Source: a phage
Sequence record: NC_129764.1
Strand: one strand, 5' to 3'
Length of the DNA stretch: 51,099 nt
Positions 3,181-51,099 of the stretch are shown here, piece after piece (positions within the stretch are counted from its first letter, which is position 1; every line of letters starts with the position of its first letter). Below the pieces are notes generated by a model. The model was not told where the DNA came from and ran no database searches. It saw nothing but the letters and a program-made list of their open reading frames with translations. Position numbers and translations under genes: made by a program.

Positions 3181-3669
3181 ATGAAAATCAAATTACTTTG
3201 CACTGGCGGTTACAAGGGCTTTACCCGAGATCTGGAAGCAGACCCTATCGTGGTTGATGCGGTGAAGTGTGATTCCAGTACCGGAGGCTACCGCGTTAAG
3301 GTTGACGATCTGGTTAAAGCTGGCGTGTACGATCTGGACTATGGACTTTCGGTTAGCCCTGTATTTGGTCCGGCTGACTTTAACGAGAATGACGGAACGA
3401 TGTTCTTCTTCGAATGGGAAGTCCAAGCAAATCCTAAGCCGCGCAAGGTTCGACTTCTCAGTAATGGCGGCTACCCGCTGCGACAAGGCTATGAGAACCG
3501 CACATTCCCAGTTATCGTGGACTTTGAAGAAATTACTAGCAATCTGGCATACGTTAACGATGAGCAGTTGCGAGCCGTTGGATTTGTCGGCGGGATGAAT
3601 AAAGAGCCGCTATGCTTCTTCCATTGTAAAGCCGAGCCGTTCGATATTGAGTGCGAGTTAGTATACTAA
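3181..3669 (+). CDS. hypothetical protein (162 aa)
   Basis: ORF, RBS gaggacgatagcATG. Confidence 0.6.
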   Translation: MKIKLLCTGGYKGFTRDLEADPIVVDAVKCDSSTGGYRVKVDDLVKAGVYDLDYGLSVSPVFGPADFNENDGTMFFFEWEVQANPKPRKVRLLSNGGYPLRQGYENRTFPVIVDFEEITSNLAYVNDEQLRAVGFVGGMNKEPLCFFHCKAEPFDIECELVY

Positions 3670-3686
3670 GCACGAATTGTTAAAAT
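3666..3686 (+). promoter_or_regulatory. dyad motif variant CTAAGCACGAATTGTTAAAAT
   Basis: Sequence match; followed 22 nt later by TGGTATAAT. Confidence 0.6.
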
Positions 3687-3740
3687 GGGATTTGTCCTGA
3701 CTGGTATAATCCCCACATCAACCACTAATAGGAAAGCATC

Positions 3741-4226
3741 ATGTTAAAATTAAAAGATATTCAGTTCCCTGTAGTATTTACCACTATTAGCTGCGGTAAA
3801 ATAACCTGCCACAGCAAAGATCGCGCAACAGATTCATCATTCAATGAGTGCCACCCGTCTATTGTTGGTAATCTTATTGAGCTTCATAACAATCACAATC
3901 CTGATAACATCCCATCTCTTCCATATTATGTTGAGGGGGTCGGGCCTGGTTGGAAGGTTGGTCGCTCCATCTTCCATGCAGCAAAGCCAGAAATCAAGCC
4001 AGCGCTACAATGCACTCAGATCGAGAACATGCCATTGAGCGCGACACTAAAAGGTGTCCAACTTGATAGCGAATCTTGGATCGATATTACCGCCACGCCT
4101 AAAACTATTGAGGTACACGATGATGTGGTGATTCTCCTATTGCATTACGGCAGCTTTAAGCACAAAACGGTATCAGGTGAAATAAGCATTAAGCGCGGAA
4201 CGCTTGTACGCTATGAGGTGAAATAA
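3741..4226 (+). CDS. hypothetical protein (161 aa)
   Basis: ORF, RBS taggaaagcatcATG. Confidence 0.6.
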   Translation: MLKLKDIQFPVVFTTISCGKITCHSKDRATDSSFNECHPSIVGNLIELHNNHNPDNIPSLPYYVEGVGPGWKVGRSIFHAAKPEIKPALQCTQIENMPLSATLKGVQLDSESWIDITATPKTIEVHDDVVILLLHYGSFKHKTVSGEISIKRGTLVRYEVK

Positions 4227-39837: not shown

Positions 39838-40551
39838 ATGAAAGACTTTAATGATATCGAAACAATCGACTTTGCAGAAACTGGGTGCTCATTCACTCGC
39901 GAAGCAATAGCATCAGGAGGTTATTATCAAGCATTGAAAACGCCAACCTGCAAAGAGATTTCAGGACGTCGATACAAGGGAACCAATACACCTGACGCAG
40001 TTCGTGATTTATGGTCAACCCCACGCGAGGTTATCGCATACCTTGAGGGTCGCTACGGAAAATATGATCTCGACGCTGCGGCAAGCGAAGAAAATAAAGT
40101 TTGCGAGAAGTTTTATTCCCAGGAAACAAACTGCTTAAAACGTTGGTGGGGTAAAAATAAGCACGTATGGTTAAATCCTCCTTACAGTCGACCTGATATA
40201 TTCGTCAAGAAAGCGATTGAGCAAATGGAGCACAACAACCAGATCGATATTCTTTTACCTGCCGATAACTCGACGGCGTGGTTTACTGAGGCTCGACAGC
40301 ACGCGGCTGAAATCATCTGGATTGAAGCTGATTTGACTGAGGATATTGACGGCAATGAATACGCACGATCCGGTCGTCTGGCTTTCATATCCGGTGAAAC
40401 TGGAAAAGCTGTAGACGGCAACAACAAAGGTTCGGTTATTTTTATTATGCGCGAACTTAAAGAAGGTGAGACGCAACAGACTCACTACATCCCAATCACA
40501 AGCATTTGTCCTTCCGTTAAAAACAAACGAGCAAAGGTGAGAAAAGTATGA
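39838..40551 (+). CDS. dam: DNA N6-adenine methyltransferase (phage Dam-like, 237 aa)
   Basis: NPPY catalytic motif (WLNPPYS). Confidence 0.75.
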   Translation: MKDFNDIETIDFAETGCSFTREAIASGGYYQALKTPTCKEISGRRYKGTNTPDAVRDLWSTPREVIAYLEGRYGKYDLDAAASEENKVCEKFYSQETNCLKRWWGKNKHVWLNPPYSRPDIFVKKAIEQMEHNNQIDILLPADNSTAWFTEARQHAAEIIWIEADLTEDIDGNEYARSGRLAFISGETGKAVDGNNKGSVIFIMRELKEGETQQTHYIPITSICPSVKNKRAKVRKV

Positions 40552-49458: not shown

Positions 49459-49479
49459 GTTTTAACAAAAAGTGCTATT
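49459..49479 (-). promoter_or_regulatory. dyad motif copy (minus strand AATAGCACTTTTTGTTAAAAC)
   Basis: Sequence match. Confidence 0.65.
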
Positions 49480-49664
49480 TAGAATTTTACATCCTCAACA
49501 AGCTCGACAAATTTGTATCCCAGGCGATATGAGTCGCCGAACAACAACAGACCCATAAATTCATCTCTGCTTATTGACTGCTTATCAACCGTCCTTAACT
49601 CTCCGTTGTGAATCACAGTATCGCCGATCTTGATTTCTGATTTATGCACTAATTTCGTTTTCAT
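49479..49664 (-). CDS. hypothetical protein (61 aa)
   Basis: ORF. Confidence 0.45.
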   Translation of the reverse strand: MKTKLVHKSEIKIGDTVIHNGELRTVDKQSISRDEFMGLLLFGDSYRLGYKFVELVEDVKF

Positions 49665-49679
49665 TTGTTAGCCCGTTAA

Positions 49680-49865
49680 TTAGAAGAATGCTACATAGTT
49701 TGCAATGCCTTTGGCATCGTCGTTAGGCATCGCCTTGACAGCAAGGTCGTAACCCGCCTCTACCTTTTGCTTTGCTGATTCTTCGTTGTATCCCCAAATA
49801 ACCAGGATTTTAACTACGTTTTCTTTATTCAGAACTTTAAGGTCTTTAGTGATGCGACGTGCCAT
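49680..49865 (-). CDS. hypothetical protein (61 aa)
   Basis: ATG (MARRITK) with RBS gaggaaaacaaaATG. Confidence 0.5.
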   Translation of the reverse strand: MARRITKDLKVLNKENVVKILVIWGYNEESAKQKVEAGYDLAVKAMPNDDAKGIANYVAFF

Positions 49866-49922
49866 TTTGTTTTTCCTCAATCTCGTTTCGATGAGGTAAT
49901 TATGCCAAATCACACCGATCGA

Positions 49923-49943
49923 GTTTTAACAAAAAGTGCTATT
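49923..49943 (-). promoter_or_regulatory. dyad motif copy (minus strand AATAGCACTTTTTGTTAAAAC)
   Basis: Sequence match; downstream hairpin and leader catcgaaacgag. Confidence 0.65.
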
Positions 49944-50630
49944 TGCGATTGCTTTGAAAAATCCACGCGGCGACAGCGATCGTATCAACTTCGTTTTGGC
50001 AGACTTGCCGCCCAGCTTGTTTTGCTGCGCAGAGTACCCGTCAGGCAGGCTTACTGGCTTTCTCTCCGGCATGACAAAATCGTCCGAGGTCCAAAGACAC
50101 GTCTTTTTCGGGTAAGCATCGCGCGGCGCAATATACATCGGGAACCAGGGATGCGCGTCATTCTCAGGAAGATAGCCGCCATACTCCCAGGGATTGAATG
50201 AGTGATCTGGTTTTCTCCAGGCAGATGACAGGACGCTAACCGGATTCTCAATGATGTAAGTCACGCCCAGGGCGTCGCCAATATTCGCAGCAATCCGTGC
50301 GGTGGCAACGGCCTTCTCCTGGAATAACGGATCACGTTCACGCTTGCTGGCAAAGTGGCGAGCACCACTAACAGCCAGGTCAGTACACGGAGGGAAGGCC
50401 ATAATAAAATCCGGCTTGCCATACACGCCAGCGATAGCATCACGCTCAAACGCTGCGTCAATGAAGACGTTCACATACTCAATGTTCGGATGCTCAACCC
50501 TGGCGTTATACTTTGCGTAATCTCCGTGATCGGCTCCGTCAAAGTTGAAGCACATCACCTTATGACCTTGCTTTGCCAGTTCATGACCAGCAAGGCCGGA
50601 ACCGTCGAATAGTGACCAAATTAATTTCAT
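49926..50630 (-). CDS. minimal C5-cytosine methyltransferase-like protein (234 aa)
   Basis: Motif I-like LFDGSG, motif IV PC (FPPCTDLAVSG), motif VI ENV-like (IENPVSVL); no obvious target recognition domain. Confidence 0.6.
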   Translation of the reverse strand: MKLIWSLFDGSGLAGHELAKQGHKVMCFNFDGADHGDYAKYNARVEHPNIEYVNVFIDAAFERDAIAGVYGKPDFIMAFPPCTDLAVSGARHFASKRERDPLFQEKAVATARIAANIGDALGVTYIIENPVSVLSSAWRKPDHSFNPWEYGGYLPENDAHPWFPMYIAPRDAYPKKTCLWTSDDFVMPERKPVSLPDGYSAQQNKLGGKSAKTKLIRSLSPRGFFKAIANSTFC

Positions 50631-50633
50631 TGC

Positions 50634-50798
50634 TTATTCCTCGCATCCTAATTGCTTGCAGTAGTGTCGCATTTTGCACCAGATCAAAAAGCTATGCCAT
50701 CCTGTGTATGATTGCGCACGTTTCTTTTTCTCGTTCACCACAGCACGCAAGAGAGACTTGCACTCCCCCTTGTTTGTGAATCGACGCATCAATTTCAT
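50634..50798 (-). CDS. small basic Cys-rich protein (54 aa)
   Basis: ATGA overlap with upstream gene; RBS ggagatcgcaaaATG; C-x-x-C-like spacing (WCKMRHYC, GC); below track cutoff. Confidence 0.45.
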   Translation of the reverse strand: MKLMRRFTNKGECKSLLRAVVNEKKKRAQSYTGWHSFLIWCKMRHYCKQLGCEE

Positions 50799-50938
50799 TT
50801 TGCGATCTCCTTTTTGTAGTGATTCAGTTTGTCGATGATTGACTTCGCCTTGTTAGCTAATGCCATGTCAGAGAACAGCGCTACGCGATAGATGTGTTCG
50901 TAACGACTAATGGTTGCGTTGATGTTTGCAGTTGTCAT
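50795..50938 (-). CDS. hypothetical protein (47 aa)
   Basis: ATG (MTTANI) with RBS context ccaatcaggagcaatcgacATG. Confidence 0.45.
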   Translation of the reverse strand: MTTANINATISRYEHIYRVALFSDMALANKAKSIIDKLNHYKKEIAK

Positions 50939-51006
50939 GTCGATTGCTCCTGATTGGTTGATGTGATGAATCATACCTAGTCGACATGGATGAGTCGTTA
51001 GCAAAA

Positions 51007-51025
51007 AATGCTATTCCAATAATTG
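51007..51025 (-). promoter_or_regulatory. dyad motif variant (minus strand AATAGCATTTTTTGCTAAC)
   Basis: Sequence match about 70 nt upstream of the 50938 start. Confidence 0.55.
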
Positions 51026-51099
51026 CTCATTATTCCATCAATACTGGAATAGGTGTAATAATCTTGATTGTTATTGATTACGAATGATGAAACGTGATT

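What the first reader, a model, noticed from the sequence alone, without database searches (positions are those of the whole stretch)
49926..50798. Minimal C5-cytosine methyltransferase-like gene coupled to a small Cys-rich protein, alongside a separate Dam-like methylase
The 234-aa protein has recognisable C5-methyltransferase motifs (LFDGSG, FPPCTDLAVSG, IENPVSVL) but is far shorter than typical enzymes and lacks an obvious target recognition domain. It is translationally coupled to an upstream 54-aa basic Cys-rich ORF (50634-50798) that is missing from the ORF track. Together with the NPPY N6-adenine methyltransferase at 39838-40551, the phage may modify both cytosine and adenine as anti-restriction. 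Alternatively this is a non-canonical modification enzyme whose specificity comes from the small partner.
Basis: partly seen in the sequence, partly recalled or inferred. Interest (0 to 1): 0.6.

Follow-up and report, generated by a model that had tools for sequence, protein, structure and literature searches.

The report
Known phage Dcm-like cytosine methylase
This is the short, stand-alone DNA cytosine-C5 methylase that T1-like phages commonly carry, already shown in related phages to make 5-methylcytosine and to trigger a bacterial retron defence, and the small gene in front of it is a recent 168-bp insertion, not a conserved partner.

The parts
49926..50630 (-). Orphan Dcm-like DNA C5-cytosine methyltransferase gene (234 aa). 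Motif I is F8-D-G-S-G12, the catalytic residue is P81-C82, motif VI is E128-N-P, and K175-K176 stand in place of motif VIII.
50631..50798 (-). 168-bp insertion relative to pSf-2, DELF2 and EF3-1. It carries the 54-aa ORF (50634-50798), its stop codon, a 3-nt spacer and a new ribosome-binding site (GAGGAA, 50637-50642) for the methylase.
   Evidence: Alignment. No DNA match in 50,697 phage records. Present in 21 metagenomic contigs in the same arrangement.
50634..50798 (-). 54-aa basic small ORF. It belongs to a rare family of Drexlerviridae early genes (54-66 aa; MKLxRRFTNKGxC...W.KMR..QL).
   Evidence: tblastn at 39% identity to Tlsvirus and Vilniusvirus proteins. A profile search found 7 clusters in 5.8 billion proteins. 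Family alignment. AF2 gives a low-confidence two-helix model.
50788..50798 (-). Left copy of an 11-nt imperfect direct repeat (ATGAAATTGAT), forming the start of the 54-aa ORF. It is the likely recombination junction.
50620..50630 (-). Right copy of the repeat (ATGAAATTAAT), forming the start of the methylase gene.
50795..50938 (-). 47-aa upstream ORF (MTTANINAT...). In pSf-2 it overlaps the methylase start by ATGA; here it overlaps the 54-aa ORF start instead.
   Evidence: No Pfam or PHROG match.
39838..40551 (+). Separate T1-type Dam N6-adenine methyltransferase gene (237 aa, NPPY at residues 113-116).
   Evidence: Pfam PF05869 at E 4.8e-69. Motif checked.

Best explanation
The 234-aa gene encodes a stand-alone (orphan) SAM-dependent DNA cytosine-C5 methyltransferase of the short 'Dcm-like' family common in Drexlerviridae and many other enterobacterial phages. 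It sits in the phage's cluster of small, same-strand genes and is presumably made early in infection. Its Cys82 thiol attacks C6 of a flipped-out cytosine, Glu128 acts on the N3/N4 side, and a methyl group passes from SAM to C5. This chemistry is inferred from conserved residues and fold, and 5mC formation has been shown for a close homologue. It needs no partner protein. Its target-recognition region is only about 40 residues, of which about 10-12 vary across the family. The target site is therefore probably short and set by the enzyme itself, possibly acting as a dimer as DNMT3 does. CCWGG has been proposed for homologues but never mapped directly. Together with the separate Dam enzyme, it marks phage DNA with 5mC and 6mA. 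The likely benefit is protection from some restriction enzymes. The known cost is that the same activity methylates retron Ec86 msDNA and sets off abortive infection. The 54-aa ORF is an unrelated small accessory gene that recombination dropped between the 47-aa ORF and the methylase, at the shared ATGAAAYTRAT start sequence. The insertion brought a replacement ribosome-binding site for the methylase.
Against: The window protein scores below Pfam PF00145's gathering threshold (11.5 against 22 bits) and matches no NCBIfam model or PDB sequence. Membership therefore rests on fold, motifs and homologues, not on the curated profile. Motif VIII is KK, not QxRxR. No assay was done on this protein itself. 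CCWGG specificity in the K42 paper is assumed by analogy with E. coli Dcm and from msDNA mutants. The dcm+ control strain gave low msDNA 5mC, so the target may differ (my inference). BASEL found no simple link between these genes and restriction resistance.
Confidence: 0.85

Rival explanations
1. The 54-aa protein is a functional partner of the methylase. It would supply or alter sequence specificity or regulate activity, making a two-component modification enzyme.
For: The genes lie 3 nt apart on the same strand in one operon, and the small protein is basic, so it could bind DNA. In other Drexlerviridae its homologues lie in the same cluster of small genes as the methylase.
Against: The ORF sits in a 168-bp insertion absent from pSf-2, DELF2, EF3-1 and every one of 50,697 phage records. 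The methylase family has thousands of members, while the small family has 7 clusters. Homologues lie about 1.5 kb away with 5-7 genes between. The K42 enzyme works alone. Only one Cys is conserved, and the model is a low-confidence helical hairpin.
Confidence: 0.04
2. The enzyme performs non-canonical chemistry on the C5-methylase scaffold. One example would be carboxymethyl transfer from carboxy-SAM, as CmoX does. Another would be action on RNA, as Dnmt2 does.
Against: The CmoX markers are an SPPC motif and an Arg at the cofactor carboxylate. This family has FPPC. No CmoA or ligase gene lies nearby. LC-MS on the K42 homologue detected 5mC on DNA.
Confidence: 0.03
3. The 54-aa ORF is not a functional gene. 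It would be just an open frame in a scrap of inserted DNA.
For: It is very short, has no family annotation and lacks about 12-17 central residues found in its homologues. Its model has low confidence.
Against: The N- and C-terminal motifs are shared with annotated 59-66-aa proteins (18 of 23 N-terminal residues identical to P0127). It has an AAGGAG site upstream and an ATGA overlap with the preceding ORF. It is intact in 21 contigs, with 2 synonymous changes and 1 amino-acid change.
Confidence: 0.15
4. The methylase is real, but its main role is not anti-restriction. It could instead time phage replication or packaging, alter host gene expression, or be a nearly neutral passenger gene.
For: BASEL found most Drexlerviridae very sensitive to restriction systems despite carrying these genes. 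The gene is broken in DELF2 (in-frame TAA) and flagged as frameshifted in ADB-2. It is lost in Ec86 escape mutants without loss of viability.
Against: The family is extremely widespread and well conserved in lytic phages, which argues for a selective benefit. Methylation of phage DNA is the classic counter to restriction (established knowledge; reference cited).
Confidence: 0.2

Closest known systems
Phage K42 / KarlJaspers (Bas06) 'Dcm-like C5 cytosine methyltransferase', the trigger of retron Ec86/Eco1
   Same: Same family and the same length class (236 against 234 aa). 56% identical over the full length. C82, E128, K175 and K176 fall at identical positions. It comes from the same phage family and occupies the same position in the cluster of small genes, and that phage also carries a Dam gene.
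   Different: It belongs to a different subfamily (Tempevirinae/Hanrivervirus against Tunavirus), and 44% of residues differ, including the ~10-residue variable loop. Its upstream neighbour is an unrelated 74-aa ORF. The window's enzyme has not been tested.
Pantoea phage AAS23 gp52 (Drexlerviridae, Sauletekiovirus)
   Same: 51% identical at E 6e-80. It too lacks a conserved-domain hit while matching C5-methylases by HHpred. AAS23 DNA is reported Dam- and Dcm-methylated.
   Different: The host is different. The evidence is restriction digests only, and host methylation was not separated from phage methylation.
DNMT3A/DNMT3B catalytic domain
   Different: Sequence identity is only 12-16%. They are eukaryotic, work as DNMT3L-assisted oligomers with regulatory domains, and target CpG. 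No evidence here bears on oligomerisation.
Classical bacterial C5-methylases (M.HhaI, M.HaeIII, E. coli Dcm/M.EcoRII; Pfam PF00145)
   Different: This protein is about 100-240 residues shorter. Motif VIII to motif IX spans about 40 residues, against roughly 100 in M.HhaI (own knowledge). KK replaces QxRxR. It scores below the Pfam threshold and has no NCBIfam hit. It has no cognate nuclease.
CmoX DNA cytosine C5-carboxymethyltransferase (Synechococcus phage S-B43)
   Different: CmoX has SPPC and a cofactor-binding Arg, and it travels with CmoA and a ligase. This protein has FPPC and no such neighbours.

Membership tests
DNA cytosine-C5 methyltransferase superfamily | Motif I (FxGxG) for SAM binding | tested here: met
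   F8-D9-G10-S11-G12. S11 and G12 are invariant and F8, D9 and G10 nearly so in 69 homologues.
DNA cytosine-C5 methyltransferase superfamily | Motif IV Pro-Cys catalytic nucleophile | tested here: met
   P81-C82 is invariant in alignments A2 and A3. C82 is one of four residues mutated in the inactive K42 enzyme.
DNA cytosine-C5 methyltransferase superfamily | Motif VI Glu-Asn (ENV) | tested here: met
   E128-N129-P130 is invariant.
DNA cytosine-C5 methyltransferase superfamily | Motif VIII QxRxR | tested here: not met
   The equivalent strand reads Y173-P-K175-K176-T177. Lys replaces Arg and there is no Gln. K175 and K176 were treated as substrate-binding residues in K42.
DNA cytosine-C5 methyltransferase superfamily | Class I methyltransferase fold closest to known C5-methylases | tested here: met
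DNA cytosine-C5 methyltransferase superfamily | Score above the Pfam PF00145 gathering threshold | tested here: not met
   11.5 bits against a 22-bit cut-off, with only the N-terminal 100 residues aligned. 39 of 69 homologues match at E<=1, best 1.3e-6.
DNA cytosine-C5 methyltransferase superfamily | Sizeable variable target-recognition domain between motifs VIII and IX | tested here: not met
   About 40 residues separate K176 from R217. Most are conserved, and only about 10-12 vary.
DNA cytosine-C5 methyltransferase superfamily | Produces 5-methylcytosine in DNA | not testable with these tools
   LC-MS showed this for the K42 homologue, and digests suggested it for AAS23. It has not been assayed for this protein.
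Short phage 'Dcm-like' methylase family (phrog_757) | Full-length profile match and a length of about 200-260 aa | tested here: met
   phrog_757 at E 2e-84 over residues 1-231.
Short phage 'Dcm-like' methylase family (phrog_757) | Conserved C-terminal signature RDAYxKKTCLW...KLGGKSxxTKxIRSLTPRGF | tested here: met
   Present at residues 170-224. G207, T213, R217, S218, R222 and G223 are invariant.
E. coli Dcm / M.EcoRII (CCWGG methylases) | Sequence membership in curated bacterial C5-methylase models | tested here: not met
   No NCBIfam model matched at E<=1, and no PDB sequence matched.
E. coli Dcm / M.EcoRII (CCWGG methylases) | Methylates the inner C of CCWGG | not testable with these tools
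   This was proposed for K42 by analogy and from msDNA mutants, and for AAS23 from digests. No direct methylome was found in the literature searches.
Type II restriction-modification system | Cognate restriction endonuclease gene next to the methylase | tested here: not met
   The neighbours are 47-138-aa ORFs that match only unknown-function families.
CmoX carboxymethyltransferases | SPPC motif, a cofactor-carboxylate Arg, and linkage to CmoA | tested here: not met
   The motif is FPPC, and no CmoA or ligase is among the neighbours. The Arg position could not be aligned with certainty.

The most novel reading that the evidence does not exclude
The 54-aa protein was inserted directly in front of the methylase gene because it modulates that enzyme or the enzyme's consequences. 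It might tune the enzyme's activity or target choice. It might instead blunt host systems such as retron Ec86 that sense the methylase's activity. Separately, this enzyme with almost no target recognition domain may recognise something other than CCWGG.
Probability: 0.06. Interest if true: 0.6.

Novelty: already known. Interest (0 to 1): 0.18.

Why it matters
It matters little as a discovery. The gene is a routinely annotated T1-like phage methylase, and its family already has experimental support. Two open points are still useful. First, nobody appears to have mapped directly which sequence these ~230-aa enzymes methylate, although they are among the shortest C5-methylases I am aware of and could be of practical interest. 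Second, carrying this gene predicts sensitivity to retron Ec86 hosts such as E. coli BL21, which is relevant when choosing a phage or a propagation strain. The 168-bp insertion is a clean small example of a gene cassette slotted in at a start codon.

Tried and rejected
- **Curated profiles and sequence searches.** Pfam, NCBIfam and PDB sequence searches on the methylase gave nothing above threshold. Fold comparison and homologues were needed instead.
- **Small ORF against profile libraries.** Pfam, PHROG and NCBIfam searches on the 54-aa ORF and its homologues gave only chance-level hits.
- **Insertion at the DNA level.** A DNA search for the insertion in phage genomes found nothing.
- **Zinc-finger idea.** A Cys-rich or zinc-finger reading of the small ORF was rejected because only Cys13 is conserved and the model is a helical hairpin.
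- **Restriction-modification pair.** This was rejected because no nuclease lies nearby. The 'restriction endonuclease' next to the homologue in Pantoea phage AH01 is a 106-aa ORF, and I did not follow it up.
- **CCWGG avoidance as a specificity clue.** This was uninformative: 87 sites observed against 53 expected.
- **Promoter and terminator scan.** A scan of 49600-51099 was at chance level.
- **Literature on target sites.** Searches for a direct methylome of this family found none. The Rtp genome paper was not available.
- **CmoX-like chemistry.** This was considered and rejected on motif grounds.

Full report
**What is there.** The window is a T1-like phage genome. Megablast of 49400-51099 hits 146 phage records, nearly all Escherichia or Shigella Tunavirus (Drexlerviridae). 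The best is Shigella phage pSf-2 at 93.8%. On the minus strand, 49926-50630 encodes a 234-aa protein, with LFDGSG at residues 7-12, FPPCTDLAVSG at 79-89 and IENPVSVL at 127-134. A 54-aa ORF (50634-50798) ends 3 nt before the methylase ATG. Its own ATG overlaps the stop of a 47-aa ORF (50795-50938) in an ATGA. The ORF at 39838-40551 matches Pfam Dam (PF05869) at E 4.8e-69 and carries NPPY at residues 113-116.

**What the 234-aa protein is.** Curated profiles barely detect it. Pfam DNA_methylase scores 11.5 bits against a cut-off of 22 and aligns only the N-terminal 100 residues. No NCBIfam model matches, and no PDB sequence matches, even with a family profile. In contrast, it matches PHROG 757 'DNA methyltransferase' at E 2e-84 over its whole length. 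The family is very large:
- 4,926 hits in the 5.8-billion-protein set, all about 225-260 aa among the 120 listed;
- 1,971 clusters at 50% identity in an exhaustive profile search, nearly all 200-260 aa with full-length matches;
- tblastn hits in 1,521 of 50,697 phage records, from Drexlerviridae to 130-165-kb myoviruses, often annotated 'Dcm' or 'C5 cytosine methyltransferase'.

The short length is thus the family norm and not a truncation.

**Experimental anchors in the literature.**
- A bioRxiv study of retron Ec86 isolated escape mutants of phage K42, whose genome is 95.4% identical to that of BASEL phage KarlJaspers. All four escapers had lesions in a 711-bp 'dcm' gene.
- Dcm expressed alone was toxic only in Ec86+ cells. 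LC-MS showed high 5mC on msDNA with the wild-type enzyme but not with a C82A/E128A/K175A/K176A mutant. 34 of 35 Ec86-sensitive phages encoded the gene.
- KarlJaspers bas06_0055 is a 711-bp 'Dcm-like C5 cytosine methyltransferase'. It is 56% identical to the window protein over its full length (E 1e-88), and the four named residues fall at exactly the same positions here.
- Pantoea phage AAS23 gp52 is 51% identical (E 6e-80). Its authors likewise found no conserved domain but a 99.7% HHpred match to C5-methylases, and they reported from restriction digests that AAS23 DNA is Dam- and Dcm-methylated.
- The BASEL paper notes that Drexlerviridae abundantly encode N6-adenine and C5-cytosine methylases, but it found no simple link to restriction resistance.

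The C5-methylase reading is therefore right and already known. The anti-restriction role is plausible but unproven.

**Specificity remains open.** In the K42 paper, CCWGG is assumed by analogy with E. coli Dcm and supported by msDNA mutants. The dcm+ MG1655 control gave low msDNA 5mC, so the phage enzyme may not simply copy host Dcm (my inference). I found no direct methylome for this family. CCWGG is not avoided in the window, with 87 sites against 53 expected.

**The small ORF.**
- Aligning the window with pSf-2, DELF2 and EF3-1 shows that the 54-aa ORF lies in a 168-bp insertion (50631-50798). In pSf-2 the 47-aa ORF overlaps the methylase start directly.
- The insertion is bounded by ATGAAATTGAT and ATGAAATTAAT, the start sequences of the two genes. 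It supplies a GAGGAA ribosome-binding site for the methylase.
- No phage record holds this DNA. Twenty-one metagenomic contigs do, in the same 47-54-234 arrangement, with two synonymous changes and one amino-acid change.
- At the protein level it resembles 59-66-aa hypothetical proteins of Tlsvirus and Vilniusvirus phages, sharing MKLxRRFTNKGxC and W.KMR..QL. A profile search of 5.8 billion proteins found only seven clusters.
- In those phages the gene lies about 1.5 kb upstream of the methylase, with five to seven genes between.
- Only Cys13 is conserved, and the model is a low-confidence two-helix hairpin.
- Upstream neighbours of the methylase differ from phage to phage, and the K42 enzyme acts alone.

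The small ORF is therefore a sporadic accessory gene that landed here by recombination. It is not a conserved specificity subunit.

**Other rivals.** CmoX-type carboxymethylation is unlikely. CmoX is defined by SPPC, a cofactor-binding Arg and linkage to CmoA. This family has FPPC, and the neighbours match only unknown-function families. No nuclease gene lies nearby, so this is an orphan methylase and not part of a restriction-modification pair.

**Verdict.** This is an ordinary, already described phage gene with a lineage-specific small insertion beside it. The remaining interest lies in the unmapped target motif of this unusually short C5-methylase, and in the prediction that this phage triggers retron Ec86.

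Noticed in passing
L002 (Escherichia phage vB_EcoS-DELF2) 2017-2721; also ADB-2: The orthologous methylase is broken in some T1-like phages. DELF2 has an in-frame TAA after codon 61 and is annotated as two CDSs. ADB-2 is flagged 'potential frameshift'. This fits a dispensable gene that is sometimes selected against, for example by retron Ec86.
   Followed up: partly
window 50620-50630 and 50788-50798: The 168-bp insertion is bounded by an 11-nt imperfect direct repeat, which is the ATG-AAA-TTR-AT start of both genes (both begin MKL). This suggests cassette insertion by recombination at start-codon microhomology.
   Followed up: partly
window 49479-49913 versus L007, L009, L012-L014 at about 3439-3774: Downstream of the methylase, the window, L008, L010 and L011 carry two 61-aa genes (DUF7421 and phrog_3623). 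Other contigs that have the same 54-aa insertion carry a single 111-aa gene there, so this cluster of small genes is mosaic.
   Followed up: no
window 49680-49913 (-): The 77-aa ORF with a GTG start is probably over-extended. The DUF7421 and phrog_7717 matches cover residues 17-77, which fits the ATG (MARRITK...) used for the 61-aa orthologues.
   Followed up: partly
window 50795-51004 (-): The listed 69-aa ORF with a TTG start is likewise over-extended. The orthologue in pSf-2 starts at the ATG giving 47 aa (window 50938), which is preceded by AGGAG.
   Followed up: partly
whole window: CTAG is strongly depleted (28 observed against 123 expected, z = -8.7). CATG, GGCC, AGCT and GGWCC are moderately depleted. 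CCWGG and CCNGG are enriched, and GATC is not avoided.
   Followed up: no
L017 (Pantoea phage AH01) 2190-3157: In this Guernseyvirinae phage, a family member overlaps a 106-aa ORF annotated 'restriction endonuclease' and is followed by a helicase. The ORF is too small for a typical type II enzyme, and I did not examine it further.
   Followed up: no
L019 (Klebsiella phage VLCpiS8c) 1183-2912: This phage carries a divergent, longer member of the family (259 aa, 37% identical in the alignment, with extra loops). A second annotated DNA methyltransferase lies about 300 bp downstream.
   Followed up: no
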